From Okeania sp. (GTDB lineage: Bacteria; Cyanobacteriota; Cyanobacteriia; Cyanobacteriales; Microcoleaceae), in assembly GCF_035285525.1 (NCBI RefSeq), contig NZ_JAYKGW010000070.1, forward strand, positions 1-32,000: 32,000 nt of DNA, given 5' to 3'. The notes beneath the pieces are model-generated. The model made no database searches and was not told the origin of the DNA. It worked only from the letters and a program-made list of their open reading frames with translations. A program made the translations under genes and the position numbers. Below are positions 7,478 to 17,387 of the stretch, in pieces. The stretch's first letter is position 1, and each line of letters begins with the position of its first letter.

Positions 7478-8767
7478 ATGTTTACAGGAGGGATGATGCA
7501 GTTAGTGGAACGTACTATCATTAACAAAAATCATCCCAATTATAAATCACTTGATGCTCTAGCTTTCTTGTCTAAAAATCTCTACAATATAGCTAACTAC
7601 ATAGTCAGACAAGAGTTTATTAATAAAGGAAATTATCTAGATTATAAAAAGGTTCAAAATTTATTACAGTCGGGAGTAGATTATCAAGCAATACCAGCCA
7701 AAGTTGCTCAACAGGTTTTGATTCTTTTAGATAAAAATTGGCAAAGTTTTTTTCAAGCTATAAGAGCTTATAATGAATGTCCGAGTAAGTTTAAAAGTCG
7801 TCCTAAATTGCCAAAATATAAAGATAAAAAGAAAGGGAGGAATATTTTAGTCTATACAAAACAAGCCATTAGTAAACCTCAATTAGTCAAAAATAAGAAG
7901 ATATTACTATCAAAAAGTAAGCTATTTTTTGACAGTAAAATAAATTATGATTCTCTGCAACAAGTGAGAATTGTTCCTAAACTTAAATTACTTTGTGATA
8001 GAAGTGGTTTACGAATCCGTTGAAGTTAAATTAGATTTGTCAGAATATCATGTAGCTTCTGTAGATTTGGGAGTGAATAATTTGGCAACTGTAACATCAA
8101 ATAAAAAAGGTTTTCAACCCTTAATTATTAACGGCAGACCAGTCAAATCAATCAATCAATTCTATAATAAGAAAAAGGGTAAACTACAATCAGAATTAAA
8201 GGATGCTAAAAGTAGTAATCGAATCAAAAGATTATCGACAAAAAGAAATTTAAAGATTGATGATTATCTACATGTATACTAGCAGATATATTATTAATCA
8301 TCTGATAGAGAACCAGATAGGAATTTTAGTAATAGGAAATAATCCTAACTGGAAACAAGGTATAAATCTGGACAAAAAAAACAATCAAAACTTTGTTCAA
8401 ATTCCTTTTTTCAAGTTAATTGAACAACTAAAATACAAAGCCTTGCTTAGTAGGAATCAAAGTAATAATTAATGAAGAGAGTTATACCTCAAAAGCTAGT
8501 TTTTTAGACTGGGACGATTTACCAGTTTATCAAAAAGGTGTCAAATATAAATAAGCGTGGTAAACGAGTGAAAAGAGGACTTTATGAAGCTTCAAATGGT
8601 GTCAAATACAATGAAATGCGTCAATTGAAGTTTAAATATATTACGAAAATTAGTCCCAAACGCTTTTAGCAATGGGATAGAGGAGCCAGTGCGTTGGGGG
8701 GGTTTCCCGACAGTCACGCAACTGGCGTGGTGTTGTAGTTCACCCCATTAAGGTAACACTTAATTAA
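7478..8767 (+). pseudogene. tnpB: IS200/IS605-family TnpB (IS1341-type RNA-guided nuclease) with multiple frameshifts and stops; no tnpA
   Basis: The TnpB sequence is spread over three frames (track ORFs 7478.., 7971.., 8257..). It reads MQLVERTIINKNHPNY...SVDLGVNNLAT (RuvC-I), then ...GIKVIINEESYTSKAS (RuvC-II). A degraded NADVNG region follows (now NEMRQ / MKCVN*) with ..NILRKLVPNAFSNGIEE and a tail VVVHPIKVTLN* ending at 8767. Confidence 0.85.
8685..8727. repeat. small hairpin repeat inserted into the 3' end of the tnpB remnant
   Basis: GCCAGTGCGT...ACGCAACTGGC inverted repeat around GGGGGGGTTTCCC. It interrupts the conserved ...SNGIE|(G)VVVHP... tail of TnpB. Confidence 0.5.
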
Positions 8768-8888
8768 AACACTTGTCAAGGAATATTTTTCTATAGATTT
8801 AGTAACTATGAATCTTCTACAGATAAACCTGTTCTCTCCATACCTATTCCCTGTTCCTTGTTCCCTGTTCCCTATTCCTTTGATTTGC

Positions 8889-10100
8889 TTAAAAATCAAC
8901 AACTTGACTCAGTAAAAAATCTGGGGATATTAGCCTTTCATCCAACTTTTTTTCTGCTGGTAAATATATAGCTACAGTAATATCCATAGAAGTTAAATAT
9001 TTACACATTAGAGGTCCGACATCTTCCCAATCTAAACCTCCTAAACCACGTCCAAGTGCAGGCATAGCTAAAGATTTTATGCCTTGTTTTTGATAATTAT
9101 TGGCAAGCCATTCTAAACCATTTTTTATATCTTCAATTTCCGAAGCATTTCGCCAATGTTTTTTGGTGGGAAAGAGCAAAAACCATTTTTGTTCATTATT
9201 CAAAAAATCTTGAGGGAGAAAAAATTTACTATCTCCTAATTGTTCTTTTACGGATGATTCTCTTTTATATAAATATGGCTTTCCTATTTGCAAATATTTG
9301 CTTTTACAAACTTCTTGGTATCTAACATAAACATCTGGAAATCTATATTTTGCTGTTGATGCTAATCCTTTTCCCATCACACCAACACAATTAACACTTA
9401 CAGTCAAAGTTTGCATATTAGAAAAGAACATATCCCCGCGAATCAGAGAAATATTTTCTGTTAACTTTCGACTCCATTCTGGTTGGAAAAACTTTGTTGG
9501 TTCAACTACAATAGAAATATTTTTACCATAATTATTTCGGGCAAAAGTGTCTCTTAAAGATTGATTGGCTTTTTCACAAGCCACATAAATAGTTTGAATA
9601 TTAGTAGCAGGAACTACATCAGGAACTAAACATTCAGCCATAATTTTTCTTTTAGAACCATCCTCATTACTCCACCATTCTTTATCGGTTTCTTTTTTAA
9701 TTTGTTTCAGAATATTTAATTCTTCTGCTTCCTGAATAGAAATAATTTCCGAATCGTTATGAGCAGCATTCCCTGTAGTAATCCAAATATCTCTTCTAGT
9801 TAAAATATCTCGTTTCACTGAAATAATAACAATTTCTTCAATAGCATATTTATGAATAATTGAGTAAAGCATTGCATTTATAGGTTGAAAGTAAAGATTC
9901 GCAAAGCTCCACAATGATTTATTATTAAAAACTATTTTTTGATAACGATTATCGACTATTTGTGAGTTGTAAATTGTTGTAGGTTTTAGTTGATTATATT
10001 CTATTAATTGGTGAGATAGAATGCCTTTCTCTAAAATAGAGATGATATTTTCGATATGAGTAATATAGAATAAATTTTGAATACTTGTTTTGTGTACCAT
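8889..10100 (-). CDS. DarT-like (DUF4433) ADP-ribosyltransferase fused to a DarG-type macrodomain
   Basis: Residues 1-205 carry DarT hallmarks: LFYITHIENIISIL..G.LS, DNR, ANLYFQPINAMLYSI, ITTGNAA, KIMAECLVPD...IQTIYV, and an end ISIVVEPTKFF like the DarT C-terminus. Residues about 215-385 carry DarG-type macro motifs: GDMF, VNCVGVMGKGLA, FPTKKHWR, AMPALGRGLGGLDWEDV. It is an intact 403-aa ORF. Confidence 0.85.
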   Translation of the reverse strand: MVHKTSIQNLFYITHIENIISILEKGILSHQLIEYNQLKPTTIYNSQIVDNRYQKIVFNNKSLWSFANLYFQPINAMLYSIIHKYAIEEIVIISVKRDILTRRDIWITTGNAAHNDSEIISIQEAEELNILKQIKKETDKEWWSNEDGSKRKIMAECLVPDVVPATNIQTIYVACEKANQSLRDTFARNNYGKNISIVVEPTKFFQPEWSRKLTENISLIRGDMFFSNMQTLTVSVNCVGVMGKGLASTAKYRFPDVYVRYQEVCKSKYLQIGKPYLYKRESSVKEQLGDSKFFLPQDFLNNEQKWFLLFPTKKHWRNASEIEDIKNGLEWLANNYQKQGIKSLAMPALGRGLGGLDWEDVGPLMCKYLTSMDITVAIYLPAEKKLDERLISPDFLLSQVVDF

Positions 10101-10229
10101 CTGTTTTTAATGTTTGTAGTTCCGCTGTCACGTTTCTTTGCCTGACTGAAAGGCAGAGCCTAGCGGCAGCTATATCGCTCAGGTTCAGAAAAAAATTATA
10201 TGGTTATTTACTTATATTTAATAGTTAAA

Positions 10230-10640
10230 TTAACTATTCCAGAAATTATCATAAATAGATTTAATAGCCTTTTCTAAAGGTGGTAGATAATTTTCTACCA
10301 CATCCCAAACTACTTCAATATCAATCCCTAAATATTCATGGGCTAATCTATTTCTAAATCATGCTATTTTTTCCCACAAAATGTTTGGTTCTGAATCTTT
10401 CCATTCTGTCGGTAACTTTTTAATAGACTCACACATAACCTCTAGATTTTTCAAGACAGCATCTTGGATAATAGGTAAACATTCAGTCGTCAGCTATCAG
10501 CTATCATAAGACTGATTTTAATCTTTGATAAAAGCTTTATTAATTAAGCAAAAAAAATCTTCTTTCCCTTCTTTATTATCAACCTTTATCCTGGTTAAAC
10601 AGTCTCTAATGTGAATTAAATAAACTCTCTTTTATTTCAT
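10230..10640 (-). pseudogene. hepT: HepT (DUF86/HEPN) toxin gene remnant with five in-frame stops
   Basis: A single 137-codon frame reads MK*KRVYLIHIRDCLTRIKVDNKEGKEDFF..FIKD*NQSYDS**LTTECLPIIQDAVLKNLEVMCESIKKL...WEKIA*FRNRLAHEYLGIDIEVVWDVV... The HEPN RNRLAHEY (Rx4H) motif is present. A TGA at 10359-10361 sits just before it, and a small GATAGCT-repeat insertion carries three stops. Confidence 0.75.
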
Positions 10641-10657
10641 AAATTAATCGCCTACTT

Positions 10658-10930
10658 TCAGACATTTTCCTTAATAAAATAATGTAAAGATTTAGTAGAA
10701 ACTACATCGACTTTTCTATTTAAAAGCTGTTCTAAATCTTCTATTAAACCAACAGGAAACCAAGGAGAAATCTTAGACAAATCATAATCAATCAAAAAAT
10801 CTATGTCACTATTTTCTGCCTCTTCTCCCCTAGCTACCGAGCCAAACACCCTGACATTAAATGACCCATGTTTAGCAGCTAAAGCTAATATTTCCTCTCG
10901 TTTTTATTGTAAGTATTTCTTAAGTTTCAT
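10658..10930 (-). pseudogene. mntA: MntA-type nucleotidyltransferase antitoxin gene with a premature stop at codon 9
   Basis: ATG at 10930 gives MKLKKYLQ*(TAA 10904-10906)KREEILALAAKHGSFNVRVFGSVARGEEAENSDIDFLIDYD..., with the minimal nucleotidyltransferase motif GSxxRGx(n)SDxDxL. The track ORF 10658..10849 is only the part after an internal GTG. Confidence 0.75.
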
Positions 10931-11265
10931 TTTTCTATGTTAACATTTTATTGGTAATTTTTTGCCACAATTTTAGTTTCCCATAATTTTAGTCTTTTTT
11001 GAGTATTAAGTATTAATAGTTAAAAATATTTGTACCCACATTCGGCACTTAAATTTATAATCTTAAAAGAACCGGTAAGTTGGCTAGATAAAAATATAAT
11101 TTACTGATATAATGGATAATAGTTTGGTCAGAAAAAGCTTCTTTCCTTTCTTTTTTGGAAAGGAGCGATAATGCTCCGCATCGCTGACGCGATCGCCTCT
11201 TGGTAACAACTATCCTGAATAAAATATTTTATAATTAAGTAAGCTCTTAACTTTCAAAAGTTTCT

Positions 11266-11940
11266 ATGTCTCAAAGCACTTTAATATCAACAAAAATTCC
11301 ACCCCTGGAAAACGGCGATAAACTTAATTGTATTCAATTTGAAAGGCGTTATGAACAAATGCCTCATATCAAAAAAGCTGAACTAATTGCAGGAATTGTT
11401 TATATAGCATCACCTTTAAGGATTAATGAACATGGAGAACCTCATGCTTCAATTATAACATGGCTTGGTTTCTATAAAGCTTTTACTCCTAATCTGCAAA
11501 TAGGAGATAATTGTACAGTACGTCTTGATGCAGAAAATCAACCTCAACCTGATGTTTTACTCAGAATTAATGTTGATGGTCAATCGACAATTAGTAAAGA
11601 TGGCTATGTAGAAGGTGCGCCAGAATTAATTATAGAAATTGCAGCTAGCAGTGCATCTATTGATTTACATCAAAAATTAAAAACTTATCAAAATAATCAA
11701 GTACAAGAATATTTAGTTTGGCGGATTTATGACAGAGAAATTGATTGGTTTAGGTTAAAAAACAGAAAATATATTAAACTTAAATCCAATGAAAAAGGGA
11801 TTATTTGTAGTGAATATTTCCCTGGTTTATGGTTAGACAAAGAAGCTTTAATTTCAGGAAATTTAGCCAAAGTATTAGCAATTTTACAACAGGGATTAAA
11901 TTCTCCAGAATATCAAAAATTTGTCAAAAATTATGATTAA
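11266..11940 (+). CDS. Uma2 family (DUF820) putative endonuclease, intact
   Basis: 224-aa ORF with the usual Uma2 layout (...AELIAGIVYIASP...PDVLL...APELIIEIAASSASIDL..K...Y....V.EYLVW...). Confidence 0.85.
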   Translation: MSQSTLISTKIPPLENGDKLNCIQFERRYEQMPHIKKAELIAGIVYIASPLRINEHGEPHASIITWLGFYKAFTPNLQIGDNCTVRLDAENQPQPDVLLRINVDGQSTISKDGYVEGAPELIIEIAASSASIDLHQKLKTYQNNQVQEYLVWRIYDREIDWFRLKNRKYIKLKSNEKGIICSEYFPGLWLDKEALISGNLAKVLAILQQGLNSPEYQKFVKNYD

Positions 11941-12425: not shown

Positions 12426-15400
12426 ATGGCAATATACCAAACCGAACCATCTAAATTTTCCCAATTACTCAAAAAAGTAAAAAATGGAGACGAACTCAAC
12501 CTCCAACCAGGAGATTACAAAGCTCCTTTTACCATTGATAAATCAATTACTATTCGTGGTAGCGGCACCGATACCGTAATTTTTGCTGCCACCGAAACTC
12601 CTCTCACCATAACAGTTCCCGAAGTACGATTGGAAAATCTCACAGTGGAGCGTACAGTTGGTGGCGAACAAGGGGAAGTTGCTATATTTGCCGAACCTAA
12701 TACTAAACCCATTTTGAGTCAAGTCAAATTAAATGGGGTTGCGGAAAATGTGGAATGGGAGGGAGCAAGTTGGGATATTCCCACGATGCTCGATTTTGGG
12801 GAAGTAGAAATTAACCGACAAGTGGAACGAGGATGGGAGTTACAACTGGGTGCGGTTTGTCAGGTTTTGTGTAATCTAAATTGGTTGCAGGTGCGCTCCA
12901 GTTATCTTTCACCGGGACGACAAAATTTGGATTTGGTGTTGAATACTGCTGATGTTCCTACTGGTACAAATTTATCTGGTTTAATTTCTCTGTTTTCAGA
13001 AGGTGGGAGACGAGAGTTGGAGGTTGCTGCTAAGGTTATTTCCTCAGCTCCGGCAACTCCAGTGGTGGCAGTGGAAACACAAGATTTATCTGCTAAAGTT
13101 TTGACTTCTCAAGATTGGGGTTATCGGTTTATCGGTAGTGCGGTGGATAGGTTGGTTCGGACTCAGTTGGGTGAAAGTGCCATGAAGAAATATCCAGAAT
13201 TTTCGGATCGTCGCGCGAAAGCAGAATTATTGATGTCTGAGATATTGGATGAAGATTCTCATTTATATTATGTGCGTCGTCAAGCACCGGGAAAGGAAGA
13301 GGGGGAGGAAGTTTGGGAACTGACAATGGCTACGGATAGGGAGGATGAATGGGAAAAAACGTTGAAACTTAGGGGAGCAGTTAATATTGATGGAGACAGG
13401 GTTTTCAAAATATTATCGGTGCAGTTTATTTCTCATAAAGCAGAAGCAGATGAGTTTAGTGTTGCTTTGCAAATCCGTTTATTGCCACAACATCAGTTCC
13501 GACGAAAGATACCATTGGGAGCGGTGCGCTCTATCCAAAAAATGCCTTTTTTTGGCGATCGCTTACTAACGGAGGATCAACTTCCTATTTGGACGACTTT
13601 TGTGAAAATGGAGCAGCGTCTCGCAGAAAAACGTCAATTTTGTTTACCTTATTCTAGTCACAACTACGGTAGTGCTAAGAAAAGGATTACTTTTGAAATT
13701 GATATTCGGGCGGCAACTATTGATGGAACGCCAGAAACTTCTCTGGAAGATATGGAGTTACGGCGACGACTTTTTGAGGCAAAAAATCAAAATATTCAAC
13801 TTTTTTCCAGTTCTCCAGCAGGTAGGGATGGTAGAGATGGGGAAAAGTTGGGAGCGATCGCTTCTATTGATTGGGAGAAGAGTCAAGTACGGATCGCGTT
13901 GGATAGTGAGATTGTGGAAAGTATTGTTCGTGGGAGTTATCGTATACCGTCTACAGGATTTTTATTTTTTGTGGATTCTGGAGATATTGCTCAGGTGCAA
14001 CGGAAACGAAGAGCGTTGGAAGATTTACAAAATGGTCGTTGTCAGAATCCATATTTGGGGGAATTTTTCTTTGATGCTACTTGTGCGCGAGTTCCAAAAA
14101 AGCGAGTGGAACTGCAACCCCAGAATTTATTGTTACCTGCTGCGAATGCTCATCAACTTGCTGCTGTGGAAAAGGTTTTGGCAGCAAAAGATTTGGCTTT
14201 GATTCAGGGTCCTCCTGGTACTGGGAAAACTACTGTGATTGCGGAAATTTGTTATCAAGTTGCGTTACGGGGAGGGCGGACTTTGATTGCGTCTCAGGCA
14301 AATTTGGCGGTTGATAATGCTTTGAGCAGGTTGGTTCATAATCCGGTGATTCGTGCTGTACGCAAGGGAAAAGCTGAGAAGGTGCAAGTGGAAGGGGAGC
14401 CATTTTTGGAGGAACGGGTGATTGATACTTGGTTAAAAAATACTGCTAATGATTGTGAAAAAGATTTGGGGGAGCGACTGCAACGGGTGGAAGTTTTACG
14501 GAATTTATTGATAGAGTCTGAGAGATTTAATGGTTATTTCGAGTTGGAGAAAAAATGGGTAAATGAACAGAAGGAGTTGAGCGATCGCCAAATTATTTTG
14601 GAGGCAAGTCGGATAGCATTGGAGGCTGAATTTTTGCAGTTGGAAACTGATAGGAAGGAGTTAGATTTTTTGGTATTGGGATTAGATAATTTGTTAAATT
14701 CTGCACCGAATATTAATTGGGAAAATGAGGAAGTTAGAATTTTTTTAGCTCGTTTACAACCTTATGCTCAGGAGGAAAGTTCGGTTAAAGATTTAATAGA
14801 GAATGTGGGTTTAGGTCGGAATCTTGCTAAAGATATTGGTTGGGAAATTCCGCAATTAGGAGCTTTTGGTTTAGCAGTTTGGTTACAGGAAAATTTAGTT
14901 GTTTTATTGCCAGAATTTCAGAGTGGTTTAGCTGTGGCAAAAAAAGCTGTTTTGGCAATGTCGGAAACTGAGAAATTATTACAGATTTATCAACAGGTTC
15001 ATGGTAATTTTGAGCGGTTGAAAAAAGATATTCAGCAAGGAGAGATAATTTCAGAAAGTTTAGGAGAAAAGCGTCAAGAATTAGAAAGGGAAAAAAGTCA
15101 GATAGATTTAGTTGTTGGAGAAGTAGGTGTCTGGATAAAAAAAATTGGTAAAGAACGGATATTTGAGGAATTGAAAAAATGTTGGGAAACTGGTGAAAGT
15201 TTTCAATTAGATTCAATTGGATTACCAGAAAGTTTAATGAAAGTTGCTAGTAGAGAAAAATTACAACTTTTGCCAAATTATGCTCAACGGATTAATCATT
15301 TGCCAGATTGGGAAAGATTGGAAAAAGCATTAAATGCCGAGTCAAGTCGTGGCTTTAAAAATATCCAAGGAAAAGAATATCGTTTTGATGAATTTTTACA

Positions 15401-17387
15401 AATTACTCTGAGTCAAGCACCGATAGTTTTGTCAGAAAGAGATTATCAAAACTGGCAAGAGTTTGCTAAATCATTTATAAATTATCCCCAACTTGGTCAA
15501 CAAGAACGACAAAGTTTAGTGAGAAAAATTCAACAATTTTTCCATAAAAATAAACAGAAATATAGTTTAGTTTGGCAACCAGAGAATATAACAAAAACTT
15601 TCACAGAAGTGATAGATAAAATTTTCAATAAAATTCTCCATAATTCTCGTGAATTTTTACTTCCTGCTAAACAAGAAAATCTCAAACAAATCCTGAAAAA
15701 TGAGAAACTATCAGAGGAAAATATACAATTATTGGCAAACCAGAGACAAAGACTAGAAATAGTCGATAAAAAAGGAAAAGATTCTCGACAAAAACTGGAA
15801 GAAAAATATCAAGAGCTTGTGGCAATTTTAAAAGAAATAGATTCTCAAACAGGAGTTAATCCAGAAATTAGCGATTTAGTCAAACAATATCTTGAATGGC
15901 AACCATTGCAGATATTAAACGATAAATCAAATTTTGCCGAAAAAGTAAATTATTGGGAAAATAGTTTAAATCAACTTAAAAAAATATCTCCTCAACTACA
16001 ACCTTTTACCGTTCTGAAAGAAATCAAAAATATTCTCCAAGAAAGACTAAACACCATCCAAGAAAAAGCCGATAAATTGCCGGAAAAAATCGAATCTTGC
16101 CAAACAAAAATTAATCAAATTAAAACGGAATTAGAACAAACATTACCAACCAACTTAATTCAAGAAAGAAACTGGTGGAAATTAGCATGGTCAAAAATTC
16201 CAGAAAATCTCAAACCCGCCGTTGAGGAAACAGAATTATTTGCCATCGAACTATTACATAAAATTAAACTGCAACAGAAAAATTGGCAACAAGAATTAGA
16301 AACAGAAGAAACCCTCCTAAATCAACACCAAAAATTTATTCAAGACTGGATAAAAAAACTCAAACAACCTTCAGAAAAAGATAGTAACGAGCTGAGAAAA
16401 ATTTACCTTGATAATGCCAACGTTATTGGTATTACCTGCGTCCAAGCTGCCAGTCGAAACTTTGCCGAAGAATTTAATAGTTTCGACGTCGTAATAATAG
16501 ATGAAGTTAGTAAATGTACTCCTCCAGAAATATTAATTCCGGCATTAAAAGGCAAAAAATTAGTATTAGTAGGAGACCATCGTCAATTACCACCAATGCT
16601 TAACGATAATACCATTGAAGAAATTGCTGAAGAGATGAAAATTTCCAAAGAAGAATTAGACTTTTTAGAAGAATCACTCTTTAAAACTCACTTCGAGACA
16701 GCCAAAGAAGAAATCAAACAAATGTTAACTATTCAATATAGAATGCACCCCAATATTATGGGAGCAATTAATCAATTTTATCAACATCGTTTAGAATGCG
16801 GTCTTATCAGACCAGACAAAAAACGTTCCCATAATTTAGAAGGTAAAATTATTCAAGAAAATCAACATCTTATCTGGGTAAAAATGCCACAGTCAGAAAA
16901 CTTTATGGAACAAAAAGAAGGAACATCACCTTTTAACAAAAAAGAAGTTGATGCCATTGAAAAAATATGTGGAGAAATGGAGAAATCTTGGTCTGTGAAA
17001 GTTGCTGAGGGTTTGCCAAGAAAAGAATTAGGAATTATTACATTTTATAATGCTCAGTTGCGATTAATAGAGTCGAGAATTAATCCTGAAAATTTTCCAT
17101 CCTTACATATTAGAACTGGAACAGTTGATAGATTTCAAGGAATGGAAAGACAGGTAATTATTGTTAGTATGGTCAGAAATAATGACTTAGGAAAAGTAGG
17201 ATTTGCCAAGAAACCAGAACGGGTAAATGTTGCTTTTTCTCGCGCTCAAGAATTGTTAATTATTGTGGGATGTCATAAATTATTTACACAACATTATGGA
17301 ACTGTAGGAAATATGTATTCAGAAGTTTCTGATGTGGTGCGCAGTCAAGGGGGATTGATAGAAATTTCAGATATTTTAATGACCTAA
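12426..17387 (+). CDS. 1653-aa Upf1/DNA2-like superfamily-1 helicase with a coiled-coil insertion of about 700 aa in the ATPase core and an unassigned N-terminal region
   Basis: One long ORF. Walker A GPPGTGKTT is at 14208-14234 (res 595-603), then motif Ia LIASQANLAVDNAL. Motif II VIIDEVSK comes only at 16491-16514 (res 1356-1363). It is followed by VLVGDHRQLPP, TIQYRMHP, GTVDRFQGMERQVIIVSMVRNN and RVNVAFSRAQELLIIVG. The stretch at residues about 640-1330 is K/E/Q/L-rich. The N-terminus starts with a beta-helix-like GDELNLQPGDY..PFTIDKSITIRGSG motif. Confidence 0.9.
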   Translation: MAIYQTEPSKFSQLLKKVKNGDELNLQPGDYKAPFTIDKSITIRGSGTDTVIFAATETPLTITVPEVRLENLTVERTVGGEQGEVAIFAEPNTKPILSQVKLNGVAENVEWEGASWDIPTMLDFGEVEINRQVERGWELQLGAVCQVLCNLNWLQVRSSYLSPGRQNLDLVLNTADVPTGTNLSGLISLFSEGGRRELEVAAKVISSAPATPVVAVETQDLSAKVLTSQDWGYRFIGSAVDRLVRTQLGESAMKKYPEFSDRRAKAELLMSEILDEDSHLYYVRRQAPGKEEGEEVWELTMATDREDEWEKTLKLRGAVNIDGDRVFKILSVQFISHKAEADEFSVALQIRLLPQHQFRRKIPLGAVRSIQKMPFFGDRLLTEDQLPIWTTFVKMEQRLAEKRQFCLPYSSHNYGSAKKRITFEIDIRAATIDGTPETSLEDMELRRRLFEAKNQNIQLFSSSPAGRDGRDGEKLGAIASIDWEKSQVRIALDSEIVESIVRGSYRIPSTGFLFFVDSGDIAQVQRKRRALEDLQNGRCQNPYLGEFFFDATCARVPKKRVELQPQNLLLPAANAHQLAAVEKVLAAKDLALIQGPPGTGKTTVIAEICYQVALRGGRTLIASQANLAVDNALSRLVHNPVIRAVRKGKAEKVQVEGEPFLEERVIDTWLKNTANDCEKDLGERLQRVEVLRNLLIESERFNGYFELEKKWVNEQKELSDRQIILEASRIALEAEFLQLETDRKELDFLVLGLDNLLNSAPNINWENEEVRIFLARLQPYAQEESSVKDLIENVGLGRNLAKDIGWEIPQLGAFGLAVWLQENLVVLLPEFQSGLAVAKKAVLAMSETEKLLQIYQQVHGNFERLKKDIQQGEIISESLGEKRQELEREKSQIDLVVGEVGVWIKKIGKERIFEELKKCWETGESFQLDSIGLPESLMKVASREKLQLLPNYAQRINHLPDWERLEKALNAESSRGFKNIQGKEYRFDEFLQITLSQAPIVLSERDYQNWQEFAKSFINYPQLGQQERQSLVRKIQQFFHKNKQKYSLVWQPENITKTFTEVIDKIFNKILHNSREFLLPAKQENLKQILKNEKLSEENIQLLANQRQRLEIVDKKGKDSRQKLEEKYQELVAILKEIDSQTGVNPEISDLVKQYLEWQPLQILNDKSNFAEKVNYWENSLNQLKKISPQLQPFTVLKEIKNILQERLNTIQEKADKLPEKIESCQTKINQIKTELEQTLPTNLIQERNWWKLAWSKIPENLKPAVEETELFAIELLHKIKLQQKNWQQELETEETLLNQHQKFIQDWIKKLKQPSEKDSNELRKIYLDNANVIGITCVQAASRNFAEEFNSFDVVIIDEVSKCTPPEILIPALKGKKLVLVGDHRQLPPMLNDNTIEEIAEEMKISKEELDFLEESLFKTHFETAKEEIKQMLTIQYRMHPNIMGAINQFYQHRLECGLIRPDKKRSHNLEGKIIQENQHLIWVKMPQSENFMEQKEGTSPFNKKEVDAIEKICGEMEKSWSVKVAEGLPRKELGIITFYNAQLRLIESRINPENFPSLHIRTGTVDRFQGMERQVIIVSMVRNNDLGKVGFAKKPERVNVAFSRAQELLIIVGCHKLFTQHYGTVGNMYSEVSDVVRSQGGLIEISDILMT

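What the first reader, a model, noticed from the sequence alone, without database searches (positions are those of the whole stretch)
8889..10100. Single-polypeptide DarT-macrodomain fusion: ADP-ribosyl writer and eraser in one chain, without the DarG C-terminal domain
In canonical DarTG, the toxin DarT (DUF4433) ADP-ribosylates thymidine in ssDNA. A separate antitoxin, DarG, reverses this with an N-terminal macrodomain and also binds DarT through a C-terminal domain. Here one intact 403-aa ORF carries a DarT-like half with the putative catalytic positions retained (H15 in ITH, R52 in DNR, E156 in AECLV). That half runs to the usual DarT C-terminal beta-strand (ISIVVEPTKFF, about residue 205). 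After only an 8-10 aa linker it continues into a DarG-type macrodomain (VNCVGVMGKG, FPTKKHW with the catalytic-type Lys313, GRGLGGLDW). The protein stops about 20 aa after the macrodomain, so the DarT-binding domain of DarG is absent. The junction looks like loss of the darT stop and the darG start. It is the only intact toxin-type gene among decayed neighbours (tnpB, hepT, mntA), which argues for selection. It is also very AT-rich, and I see no HIP1 site in it. In-cis neutralisation would need a different activation logic from the two-protein system.
Basis: partly seen in the sequence, partly recalled or inferred. Interest (0 to 1): 0.72.

Follow-up and report, generated by a model that had tools for sequence, protein, structure and literature searches.

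The report
Known single-chain DarT-macrodomain fusion (DarTG)
This gene joins a DNA ADP-ribosylating toxin and the enzyme that removes that mark into one protein; the fusion is real but already known (a 51%-identical relative was crystallised in 2021 and thousands exist), and this copy carries two unusual substitutions that may have weakened it.

Summary
Window 8889-10100 (-) is an intact 403-aa ORF with a full-length DarT domain (residues 11-205), an 11-residue junction, a DarG-type macrodomain (217-385) and no DarG C-terminal domain. H15, R52, Y70, E156 and K313 are all retained.

The novelty claim fails. PDB 7OMU ("Thermosipho africanus DarTG in complex with ADP-ribose", released 2021) aligns over residues 8-398 (E = 4.6e-128). 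The AlphaFold model superposes on it across both domains (TM 0.88/0.94). The native protein, UniProt K2PFJ6, is named [quoted passage not shown]. Full-length relatives occur in 292 species genomes across many phyla and form more than 2000 clusters at 90% identity. They have no conserved neighbour gene.

Arg351 lies in the ADP-ribose-grasping loop. Four cyanobacterial orthologues, including a sister Okeania strain, are pseudogenes.

Intactness is only weak evidence for selection: P = 0.09 under pure neutrality. HIP1 absence is uninformative (0.53 sites expected).

Verdict: an ordinary, possibly attenuated member of a known family. Its physiological trigger remains unstudied.

The parts
8889..10100 (-). 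Complete ORF of 403 aa (plus stop): fused DarT-macrodomain protein, identical to NCBI WP_324235925.1 / MEB3340507.1 (Okeania sp.)
9486..10070 (-). DarT (DUF4433) ADP-ribosyltransferase domain, residues 11-205; full-length Pfam match
   Evidence: profile hits to Thermus DarT 7omv (E=1.9e-11), Mtb DarT 7yk3 and E. coli DarT1 8baq
9453..9485 (-). Junction, residues 206-216 (QPEWSRKLTEN). It is structured, not floppy: pLDDT 94-96, with a strand at 209-212
8946..9452 (-). DarG/TARG1-type macrodomain, residues 217-385 (equivalent to DarG model positions 2-149 of 329)
8889..8945 (-). Short C-terminal tail (residues 386-403) and stop codon; no DarG C-terminal domain follows
10056..10058 (-). Codon H15 (ITH): the His conserved in Thermus, Mtb and E. 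coli DarT sequences
9945..9947 (-). Codon R52, equivalent to Thermus DarT2 R51 (proton abstraction)
9891..9893 (-). Codon Y70, equivalent to DarT2 Y71, the Tyr of the H-Y-E motif (DarT1 has Ser here)
9879..9881 (-). Codon I74 (ATA): an outlier. Arg in 255/270 fused relatives and 14/15 DarT-only hits, never Ile; AGA in L001-L003. It lies between Y70 and M77 in the (P)R-x-P-M-L-Y segment
9633..9635 (-). Codon E156, the ART catalytic Glu (Taq DarT2 E160; Ala in the 7omu and 7omv crystal chains)
9162..9164 (-). Codon K313 in FPTKKHW, equivalent to Taq DarG K80 / TARG1 catalytic Lys
9048..9050 (-). Codon R351 (CGT): an outlier. Cys in 267/270 fused and 81/92 macro-only relatives, never Arg/Lys; TGT in L001-L004. 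It corresponds to Taq DarG A118, inside the ADP-ribose-grasping loop 117-122
10119..11036 (-). 918-bp segment, replaced by 44 nt in relative L001, carrying the mntA and hepT remnants on the same strand directly upstream of the fused gene
10230..10478 (-). hepT remnant: HepT-like PF01934 (E=6e-21), internal TGA at 10359-10361, N-terminus missing
10658..10930 (-). mntA remnant: NTP_transf_2 (E=7e-11), premature TAA at codon 9 (10904-10906)
7478..8669 (+). tnpB (OrfB_IS605) pseudogene spread over at least 4 frame changes; similarity to relatives L001/L002 ends 5 nt after the fused gene's stop codon

Best explanation
The ORF is the Okeania member of the already described family of naturally fused DarT-DarG(macro) proteins, the "DarTG fusion" whose prototype is Thermosipho africanus K2PFJ6 / PDB 7OMU.

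Shown.
- One rigid two-domain chain.
- An N-terminal DarT2-like ADP-ribosyltransferase fold retaining H15, R52, Y70, M77 and E156.
- A C-terminal DarG/TARG1-type macrodomain retaining the catalytic Lys313 and the Gly-rich ADP-ribose loop.
- No DarG C-terminal domain.
- No conserved partner gene.

Inferred from the characterised two-gene DarTG2 system. The DarT half transfers ADP-ribose from NAD+ to a base in single-stranded DNA, probably thymidine. The tethered macrodomain hydrolyses that adduct. The macrodomain alone is a sufficient antitoxin in Thermus aquaticus. The covalent link therefore fixes a 1:1 writer:eraser ratio and plausibly replaces the toxin-sequestering role of the missing C-terminal domain.

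Inferred from distribution. The patchy spread across phyla at about 50% identity, with heterogeneous flanks, points to a horizontally mobile one-gene toxin-antitoxin or defence-type module.

This copy. It sits in a 5-kb patch of decaying mobile and TA genes. It carries lineage-specific R74I (toxin half) and C351R (ADP-ribose loop of the eraser half). It is likely attenuated, or at an early stage of the decay already completed in a sister Okeania strain.
For: Identity with the known fusion.
- 7omu aligns over residues 8-398, E=4.6e-128 by phmmer and 1e-171 by profile.
- Foldseek top hit is 7omu, "Thermosipho africanus DarTG in complex with ADP-ribose", released 2021-06-23: TM 0.88/0.94, rmsd 2.2 A over 391 columns, 51% identity. 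The model has pLDDT 90.1 and pTM 0.88.
- The native T. africanus protein is 388 aa and UniProt names it a transferase-glycohydrolase fusion protein.

Domain calls.

Catalytic residues.
- Conservation.
- Mapping to Thermus R51/Y71 and Taq E160.
- Mapping to Taq DarG T79-K80-K81-H82-W83 and G117-x-G119-N-G121.
- The macrodomain alone rescues DarT toxicity, and full-length DarG also binds DarT. The C-terminal domain sequesters DarT.

DarT2-like rather than DarT1-like.
- Tyr, not Ser, at the Y71 position, and no Asp two residues after R52.
- Foldseek TMt 0.80 to Thermus DarT against 0.58 to E. coli DarT1.
- A macrodomain partner rather than NADAR.

Family size and independence.
- 292 species genomes.
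- 2036 clusters at E<=1e-100.
- About 35-40 full-length clusters at 50% identity.
- No recurrent neighbour in 80 loci.

Attenuation or decay.
- I74 and R351 are outliers and are unique to the window lineage.
- G119E, next to the R351-equivalent position, strongly reduces Taq DarG activity.
- Four cyanobacterial orthologues carry premature stops: L003, L006, L014 and L065.
Against: - No enzymatic activity, target base or toxicity was or could be tested here. I found no held paper describing the biochemistry or physiology of any fused member.
- The DarT half scores below NCBIfam's DarT equivalog cut-off (81 against 150 bits), so functional equivalence to DarT2 is an inference.
- The base-coordinating position holds Asn (N111). 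Mtb DarT2 and guanine-specific DarT1 also have Asn there, whereas Thermus DarT2 has His. Base specificity therefore cannot be read from the sequence.
- The effect of R74I and C351R is unknown. Lineage dN/dS (about 0.3) is not detectably relaxed, and 2 hits among 99 conserved positions out of 18 non-synonymous changes is compatible with either constraint or chance.
- A defence role is inferred only from distribution. Flanks are mostly housekeeping genes, and the family is essentially absent from the plasmid and phage collections as a fused form.
Confidence: 0.85

Rival explanations
1. This particular copy is already non-functional: an open reading frame that has not yet acquired a stop codon, decaying along with its neighbours. 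R74I would have disabled or crippled the toxin half first, after which C351R in the eraser half became tolerable.
For: - I74 and R351 are each unprecedented among 285 and 362 homologous domains respectively, and both are derived in this lineage only.
- R351 lies between the two ADP-ribose-contacting glycines of the loop that closes on the ligand. The adjacent G119E mutation cripples Taq DarG.
- The sister Okeania orthologue L003 lost its start codon and has a stop at codon 62, with the same synonymous/non-synonymous pattern.
- 4 of about 16 cyanobacterial loci are pseudogenes, against 0 of about 64 others.
- An intact frame has P=0.09 even under full neutrality.
- The surrounding tnpB, hepT and mntA genes are all dead.
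Against: - All residues known to be catalytic are intact.
- Lineage-specific dN/dS of about 0.3 indicates constraint over most of the branch.
- No residue-level experiment exists for either position.
- Other divergent fused members tolerate non-Arg residues at position 74 (11 of 270).
Confidence: 0.4
2. One reading: a previously unrecognised architecture that arose locally by loss of the darT stop and the darG start, is maintained by selection, and implies a new activation logic.
For: - The architecture and residues are as described.
- The canonical darT-darG gene order is compatible with such a fusion.
- How a fused form is triggered is not addressed in any paper I could search.
Against: - A solved structure has existed since 2021, with an explicit "fusion protein" name.
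- NCBI already annotates this exact protein.
- There are more than 2000 clusters at 90% identity and 292 species.
- Only 27-33% identity to two-gene DarTG shows an ancient fusion, not a local one.
- The selection argument is weak.
Confidence: 0.03
3. The fused enzyme is not a toxin-antitoxin or defence element. It is a physiological writer-eraser of a reversible DNA mark that tunes replication or transcription, as proposed for DarTG in Mycobacterium tuberculosis.
For: [quoted passage not shown]
- Flanking genes of the family are mostly housekeeping.
- The fused form is chromosomal and essentially absent from plasmid and phage collections.
- Strong conservation (about 50% identity across phyla; dN/dS 0.2-0.25).
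Against: - The patchy, phylum-jumping distribution with no conserved synteny is typical of mobile accessory genes.
- Loss in close relatives shows it is dispensable.
- In the window it sits among IS and TA debris.
Confidence: 0.12
4. The apparent fusion is an assembly or frameshift artefact of two overlapping genes.
For: None found. The sequence comes from a draft or metagenome-type assembly (36-kb contig).
Against: - The same uninterrupted frame through the same junction occurs in 292 species genomes, including complete chromosomes.
- It also occurs in a crystallised native protein.
- The junction is conserved and confidently structured.
Confidence: 0.01

Closest known systems
Thermosipho africanus DarTG fusion protein (UniProt K2PFJ6, WP_004103096.1; PDB 7OMU, released 2021)
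   Same: - Same single-chain order: DarT, short structured junction, DarG-type macrodomain, about 15-residue tail. Length is 388 against 403 aa.
- 51% identity over residues 8-398. The predicted structure superposes over both domains (TM 0.88/0.94).
- Same catalytic residues and the same absence of a DarG C-terminal domain.
   Different: - Different phylum (Thermotogota against Cyanobacteria).
- The T. africanus protein has the consensus Arg and Cys where the window copy has I74 and R351.
- The crystallised chain carries an engineered Glu-to-Ala change at the position of window E156.
Canonical two-gene DarTG2 (Thermus aquaticus / Thermus sp. 2.9, M. tuberculosis, EPEC; also cyanobacterial and Bacillus plasmid copies)
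   Same: - DarT fold with the His, Arg51, Tyr71, Met78 and Glu160 equivalents.
- DarG macrodomain with the Lys80 equivalent and the Gly-rich loop.
- Gene order is toxin first, with the macrodomain immediately after.
   Different: - Two polypeptides. DarG has an extra C-terminal domain of about 180 aa that binds and sequesters DarT (title of Deep et al. 2023 cited). That domain is absent here.
- Only 27-33% identity.
- Below both NCBIfam equivalog cut-offs.
DarTG1 (DarT1 + NADAR antitoxin; E. coli C7)
   Same: Homologous DarT fold (profile E=5e-8). Shares the NAAS motif with Asn at the base-coordinating position.
   Different: - Guanine-specific.
- Ser instead of Tyr at the H-Y-E Tyr position, and a catalytic Asp54 that is absent here.
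- The antitoxin is a NADAR, not a macrodomain.
- Weaker structural match (TMt 0.58).
Human TARG1 (C6orf130)
   Same: The macrodomain half shares the fold (TMt 0.8-0.86), the catalytic Lys position and the G-C-G-L loop Cys.
   Different: A stand-alone eukaryotic protein and DNA de-ADP-ribosylase. About 22% identity. No transferase attached.

Membership tests
Naturally fused DarT-DarG(macro) proteins (prototype T. africanus DarTG, PDB 7OMU / UniProt K2PFJ6) | One ORF with an N-terminal DarT domain followed directly by a DarG-type macrodomain | tested here: met
Naturally fused DarT-DarG(macro) proteins (prototype T. africanus DarTG, PDB 7OMU / UniProt K2PFJ6) | End-to-end sequence homology to the prototype, including the junction | tested here: met
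   residues 8-398 against chain 24-405, E=4.6e-128; E=1e-171
Naturally fused DarT-DarG(macro) proteins (prototype T. africanus DarTG, PDB 7OMU / UniProt K2PFJ6) | Same relative arrangement of the two domains in three dimensions | tested here: met
   AlphaFold model (pLDDT 90.1, pTM 0.88) against 7omu: TM 0.88/0.94, rmsd 2.2 A over 391 columns. This compares a predicted structure, not an experimental one.
Naturally fused DarT-DarG(macro) proteins (prototype T. africanus DarTG, PDB 7OMU / UniProt K2PFJ6) | No DarG C-terminal (DarT-binding) domain, in cis or nearby | tested here: met
   only the first ~150 of ~330 model positions match; no tblastn trace in the window or in 80 loci
Naturally fused DarT-DarG(macro) proteins (prototype T. 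africanus DarTG, PDB 7OMU / UniProt K2PFJ6) | Family-invariant residues Arg74 and Cys351 | tested here: not met
   The window has Ile74 and Arg351. This affects the likely activity of this copy, not its homology.
Naturally fused DarT-DarG(macro) proteins (prototype T. africanus DarTG, PDB 7OMU / UniProt K2PFJ6) | Both enzymatic activities in one chain | not testable with these tools
   Needs biochemistry.
DarT2 (ssDNA thymidine ADP-ribosyltransferase) | ART fold with the H-Y-E motif (His, Tyr71, Glu160) | tested here: met
   H15, Y70 and E156 are conserved and aligned to Thermus DarT; Foldseek TMt 0.79-0.80
DarT2 (ssDNA thymidine ADP-ribosyltransferase) | Arg51 (proton abstraction) and the Met aligned with DarT1 M71 (catalytically essential; Thermus M78 by my own recollection) | tested here: met
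   R52 and M77
DarT2 (ssDNA thymidine ADP-ribosyltransferase) | Conserved Arg/Lys in the (P)R-x-P-M-L-Y segment | tested here: not met
   I74 in the window. Arg in Thermus and Mtb DarT and in cyanobacterial plasmid DarT; Lys in Bacillus thuringiensis
DarT2 (ssDNA thymidine ADP-ribosyltransferase) | Thymine-coordinating His119 (Thermus numbering) | tested here: inconclusive
   The family has an invariant Asn111 (GNAA). Mtb DarT2 also has Asn (SDGNAA), and so does guanine-specific DarT1 (TNAAS), so this residue does not discriminate the target base.
DarT2 (ssDNA thymidine ADP-ribosyltransferase) | NCBIfam equivalog score at or above the cut-off | tested here: not met
   81 bits against a cut-off of 150
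DarT2 (ssDNA thymidine ADP-ribosyltransferase) | Sequence-specific ADP-ribosylation of thymidine in ssDNA; toxicity | not testable with these tools
   Needs biochemistry and genetics.
DarG antitoxin | TARG1-like macrodomain with a catalytic Lys (Taq K80) in the T-K-K-H-W context | tested here: met
   T312-K313-K314-H315-W316; Foldseek TMt about 0.9 to 5m3e/5m3i
DarG antitoxin | ADP-ribose-grasping loop G117-x-G119-N120-G121 with a small residue at x | tested here: inconclusive
   G350, G352 and G354 are present, but x is Arg351, unprecedented in 362 homologues. The neighbouring G119E mutation is strongly inhibitory in Taq DarG.
DarG antitoxin | C-terminal DarT-binding domain | tested here: not met
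DarG antitoxin | NCBIfam equivalog score at or above the cut-off | tested here: not met
   161.5 bits against a cut-off of 250
DarTG1 (DarT1 + NADAR) | NADAR-domain antitoxin | tested here: not met
   Pfam finds Macro and no NADAR domain.
DarTG1 (DarT1 + NADAR) | Ser at the H-Y-E Tyr position and a catalytic Asp two residues after the Arg | tested here: not met
   Y70 and R52-Y53-Q54
Classical two-gene type II/IV toxin-antitoxin operon | Separate toxin and antitoxin polypeptides | tested here: not met
   Single ORF; no partner gene in 80 loci

The most novel reading that the evidence does not exclude
Fused DarTG proteins could be a self-contained, one-protein immune or stress switch. In that reading the trigger acts on the tethered macrodomain, for example by a phage factor, by ADP-ribose or NAD+ levels, or by cleavage at the junction, rather than by antitoxin degradation as in two-gene systems. 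The Okeania allele (R74I + C351R) could then be a co-adapted pair that retunes both the writer and the eraser, not a decaying gene. Neither the trigger nor the physiology of any fused member is described in the literature I could search.
Probability: 0.1. Interest if true: 0.5.

Novelty: already known. Interest (0 to 1): 0.15.

Why it matters
As a discovery it matters little. The architecture has been solved, named and annotated, and this exact protein is already in RefSeq.

Three modest points remain.
- The fused family is large and phylogenetically broad, yet I found no held paper on its biochemistry, trigger or biological role. Fused members offer a clean system for asking whether enzymatic reversal alone, without toxin sequestration, is enough to keep a DarT in check.
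- The two lineage-specific substitutions flag positions (Arg in the R-x-P-M-L-Y segment; the small residue in the G-x-G loop) that are nearly invariant but, as far as I could find, untested.
- Repeated pseudogenisation in cyanobacteria, mostly hitting the toxin half first, illustrates how a single-chain toxin-antidote gene decays.

Tried and rejected
- **Literature on the fusion.** Searches for text on the fused form found nothing. The 2021 Nature DarT paper and LeRoux 2022 are not held. The link of 7OMU to the 2021 Nature paper rests on my own knowledge. The entry title, release date and organism are tool results.
- **Conserved partner gene** (detached DarG C-terminal domain, regulator). All-against-all clustering of ORFs in 80 loci within 6 kb either side found none. 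The two recurrent clusters were antisense shadow ORFs inside the gene. A Pfam census of 132 flanking ORFs was heterogeneous.
- **Plasmid "short DarG" intermediates.** I first misread the plasmid hits as DarT plus a macro-only gene. The annotation shows canonical 341-362-aa DarG, so I rejected that reading.
- **Asn111 as a guanine-specificity marker.** I considered arguing that the invariant Asn111 implies DarT1-like guanine specificity. I rejected this because M. tuberculosis DarT2 has the same Asn.
- **N-terminal extension of the ~500-aa relatives.** No Pfam match, only weak PHROG hits, and no remnant in the window.
- **Promoter and terminator scan.** Not above the shuffled expectation.
- **Rfam.** No match in the window.
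- **Model coordinates.** They are not exposed to scripts, so I could not inspect the structural environment of residues 74 and 351 or the relative orientation of the two active sites.
- **First column mapping** was offset by two residues. It was corrected.
Full report
**1.
The ORF listing gives a single 403-aa ATG-initiated ORF at 8889..10100 on the minus strand. Pfam matches DarT (PF14487) over residues 11-205, covering the whole 201-position model (E=1.1e-35), and Macro (PF01661) over 236-363. PADLOC's DarT model covers 8-204. Its DarG model covers 217-385 but uses only positions 2-149 of 329. NCBIfam's DarG equivalog likewise aligns only positions 1-155 of 338. The protein is therefore DarT, an 11-residue junction and a DarG-type macrodomain, ending about 15-18 residues later. 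tblastn with the C-terminal domains of three canonical DarG proteins finds nothing in the window or in 80 related loci. In DNA of 30% GC an uninterrupted 1.2-kb frame is far from a chance ORF.

**2.
Across 270 fused relatives, H15 is His in 253, R52 is Arg in 264, E156 is Glu in 269 and K313 is Lys in 269. The single E156 exception is the engineered crystal chain.
- Profile alignments place R52 on Thermus DarT R51, Y70 on Y71 and E156 on the Glu that is Ala in the 7omv and 7omu chains.
- Schuller et al. 2023 (PMC11543638) state that in DarT2 Y71 is the Tyr of the H-Y-E motif, R51 is relevant for proton abstraction, and the catalytic-null mutant is E160A in T. aquaticus DarT2.
- In the macro half, T312-K313-K314-H315-W316 matches Taq DarG T79-K80-K81-H82-W83. 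K80A inactivates Taq DarG (PMC5179494).

**3. The architecture is already known.**
- The best PDB sequence match is 7omu, a 406-residue single chain aligned over residues 8-398 (E=4.6e-128).
- An AlphaFold2 model built on 94 sequences has pLDDT 90.1 and pTM 0.88. The junction is confidently structured (pLDDT 94-96, strand 209-212).
- Foldseek returns 7omu first, titled "Thermosipho africanus DarTG in complex with ADP-ribose" and released 2021-06-23. TM-scores are 0.88/0.94 and rmsd is 2.2 A over 391 columns, so both domains sit in the same arrangement.
- Next come the DarG macrodomains 5m3e and 5m3i (TMt about 0.9), Thermus DarT (0.8), Mtb DarTG 7yk3 and, more weakly, E. coli DarT1 (0.58).
- To exclude an engineered chimera I searched with the 7omu sequence. 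A native 388-aa T. africanus protein matches at about 100%. Its UniProt name is [quoted passage not shown], K2PFJ6.
- The window protein itself is RefSeq WP_324235925.1, [quoted passage not shown].
- From my own knowledge, 7OMU was deposited with Schuller et al., Nature 2021. That paper is not in the held library, and no held paper discusses the fusion.

**4. The family is large, old and self-contained.**
- All 120 best hits of the first homology search are 382-520 aa, nearly all with both Pfam domains on record.
- 2036 clusters at 90% identity match the 7omu sequence at E<=1e-100.
- An exhaustive HMMER pass over 1.84 billion representatives finds some 35-40 full-length clusters at 50% identity.
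- A scan of one genome per species finds 292 species with a continuous full-length match. They span Cyanobacteria, Chloroflexota, Poribacteria, Planctomycetota, Aquificota, Ignavibacteria, Acidobacteria, WOR-3 and Thermodesulfobacteriota, at about 50% identity.
- Clustering all ORFs within 6 kb of 80 loci reveals no recurrent neighbour. A Pfam census of 132 flanking ORFs is a mixture of housekeeping enzymes with occasional AAA ATPases, AbiEii, Eco57I and Uma2.
- In the plasmid collection the query finds only canonical two-gene DarTG at 27-33% identity: darT of 210 aa, a 14-85 nt gap, then darG of 341-362 aa with its macrodomain first.
The divergence shows it happened long ago, not in this genome.
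- In phages the hits are almost all macro-only proteins.

**5. Which DarT type is it?**
- The DarT half has Tyr at the H-Y-E position where DarT1 has Ser.
- It lacks the DarT1 Asp two residues after the catalytic Arg (the window reads R52-Y53-Q54).
- It is paired with a macrodomain, not a NADAR.
- It matches Thermus DarT better than E. coli DarT1 in sequence and in structure.

It is therefore DarT2-like. It falls below NCBIfam's equivalog threshold.

I tested one tempting inference. The family's invariant GNAA motif puts Asn111 where Thermus DarT2 has the thymine-coordinating His119 and DarT1 has the guanine-coordinating Asn104. However, M. tuberculosis DarT, described as a DarTG2 enzyme, also reads SDGNAA. 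The residue does not discriminate, and the target base cannot be assigned from sequence.

**6.
In an alignment with 119 relatives the window protein departs at two of the 99 positions that are at least 95% conserved. On the larger set:
- **Position 74** is Arg in 255 and Lys in 4 of 270 fused members, and Arg/Lys in all 15 DarT-only hits. It is never Ile.
- **Position 351** is Cys in 267, Ala in 2 and Ser in 1 of 270 fused members. In 92 macro-only hits it is Cys, Thr, Ala, Ser or Val, with one Tyr. It is never Arg or Lys.

Both changes are single-nucleotide (AGA to ATA, TGT to CGT) and are unique to the window lineage relative to L001-L004.

Ile74 lies in the R-x-P-M-L-Y segment.
- It is four residues after Y70.
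- It is three residues before M77, the Met aligned with DarT1 M71 (essential for catalysis).
- Thermus and Mtb DarT and the plasmid DarT2s have Arg or Lys there.

Arg351 corresponds to Taq DarG A118.
- It lies between G117 and G119, both of which hydrogen-bond ADP-ribose.
- It sits in the 117-122 loop that closes on the ligand.
- The adjacent G119E mutation markedly reduces activity.

No experiment addresses either position directly, so impairment is an inference.

**7. Selection and decay.**
- Pairwise dN/dS among the window gene and L001-L004 is 0.20-0.25, which shows historical purifying selection.
- The window lineage has 16 synonymous and 18 non-synonymous unique codon changes (omega about 0.3).
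- L003, the 88%-identical orthologue in Okeania sp. SIO3B5, has 17 and 16. Yet it has lost its start codon (ATG to ATA) and has a stop at codon 62.
- With 39 lineage-specific substitutions and 5.9% of possible substitutions creating stops, an intact frame has P=0.09 under complete neutrality.
- Among the 80 loci, four carry premature stops: Okeania L003, Hormoscilla L006 and L014, and Nostoc L065. All four are cyanobacterial (about 16 cyanobacterial loci), and none of about 64 others is disrupted. Three are hit early in the toxin half.

"Intact, therefore selected" is thus weak. The copy may be functional, attenuated or newly dead.

**8. Local context.**
The window is ordinary chromosome: EF-G, CofD, ABC/MlaD, SDR and DAO genes, and a 1653-aa SF1 helicase. 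The fused gene lies in a 5-kb patch that also holds:
- a tnpB pseudogene with at least four frame changes;
- hepT with an internal stop and no N-terminus;
- mntA with a stop at codon 9;
- an intact Uma2 gene.

In relative L001, Uma2 lies 44 nt upstream of the fused gene. The window has an extra 918 bp (10119-11036) carrying the mntA and hepT remnants on the same strand. Similarity around the fused gene begins 18 nt before the ATG and ends 5 nt after the stop.

HIP1 (GCGATCGC) occurs 14 times in the window and never in the gene, but only 0.53 sites are expected. The gene's GC (0.302) matches its flanks. No promoter or terminator signal exceeds the shuffled expectation, and there is no Rfam match.

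**9. How it most likely works.**
- **Shown:** fold, domain order, catalytic residues, rigid packing and the absence of a partner gene.
- **Inferred from the two-gene system:**
  - The DarT half ADP-ribosylates a base in ssDNA, and the macrodomain removes the adduct through Lys313.
  - In T. aquaticus the macrodomain alone rescues cells from DarT, while full-length DarG additionally binds the toxin. The C-terminal domain sequesters DarT (Deep et al. 2023 title).
  - In the fusion, the covalent link enforces 1:1 stoichiometry and proximity and plausibly stands in for sequestration.
- **Not established:** what shifts the balance toward modification (a trigger acting on the eraser, substrate abundance such as phage ssDNA, or proteolysis) is unknown. 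Whether the role is defence, addiction or physiological regulation as in M. tuberculosis is also unknown.

**10. Verdict.**
The finding is a correct description of a known kind of protein. It is not an artefact and not new. The only specific features of this copy are two outlier substitutions and a decaying neighbourhood, which point toward attenuation and away from a specially maintained function.

Noticed in passing
Relatives P0007, P0015-P0017, P0020, P0022-P0026, P0028, P0030, P0033, P0035, P0036, P0045, P0046; also L020:5761-5961: At least 17 of the 120 closest homologues are 468-520 aa. They carry an N-terminal extension of about 100 aa with a conserved start, MxRGGxRxGAGAKxxW...T(I/V)R(V/I)P + helix, followed by a variable linker. 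It may be a DNA-binding (Arc/ribbon-helix-helix-like) module, which would make a three-part single chain. There is no Pfam match, only weak PHROG hits (Arc-like repressor E=0.26), and no remnant in the window.
   Followed up: partly
L003:6001-7209, L006:6001-7191, L014:6001-7179, L065:6001-7191: Four orthologues carry premature stops, and all four are cyanobacterial: Okeania SIO3B5 (start lost, stop at 62), two Hormoscilla (stop at 26; stops at 38, 49, 51 and 60) and Nostoc (stop at 358). None of about 64 non-cyanobacterial loci is disrupted. Three of the four are hit early in the toxin half.
   Followed up: partly
L065:6001-7191 (Nostoc sp. P12578 bin 22): This copy has its only stop at the position of W358, inside the macrodomain, leaving the DarT half open. 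That would be expected to be toxic unless the DarT half is inactive or the stop is a sequencing error.
   Followed up: no
window 10119-11036: A 918-bp segment with the mntA and hepT remnants, on the same strand as the fused gene, replaces 44 nt in relative L001. L002 lacks both this segment and the Uma2 gene. Small TA-type cassettes therefore come and go between the helicase gene and the fused gene.
   Followed up: partly
window 8843-8878: A heptamer tandem array (CCTGTTC x 5.1 on the + strand) lies 11 nt beyond the stop codon. A similar array occurs elsewhere in L003 (5424-5461). It is probably a cyanobacterial short tandem repeat.
   Followed up: no
window 12426-17387 (+): A 1653-aa ORF with SF1 helicase domains (AAA_11/AAA_12, AAA_30) only in its C-terminal two thirds. 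It is syntenic with the fused gene in L001 and L002 (85-86% nucleotide identity). The N-terminal ~570 aa has no Pfam match.
   Followed up: no
Phage records H27-H50 (phiEco32-like Escherichia and Shigella phages): Stand-alone phage macrodomain proteins share 41-43% identity with residues 221-387 of the window protein. They sit next to an ECF sigma factor gene. They are candidates for DarG-mimic anti-defence proteins of the kind reported for other phages (titles).
   Followed up: no
PDB 7yk3_A against alignment A4: M. tuberculosis DarT has Asn (SDGNAA) at the position of the Thermus DarT2 thymine-coordinating His119. This is the same residue as guanine-specific DarT1 N104. The His/Asn rule of thumb for base specificity does not hold across DarT2 enzymes.
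   Followed up: partly
Proteins P0163, P0178, P0179, P0180, P0185, P0215: More divergent proteins (32-37% identity, 453-610 aa) also contain both a DarT-like and a macro-like stretch, but with extra sequence. They may be independent or elaborated fusions.
   Followed up: no
window 11266-11940 (+): An intact Uma2-family (putative restriction endonuclease-like) gene, conserved next to the fused gene in L001. The nearest HIP1 site, at 11189, lies just upstream of it.
   Followed up: no
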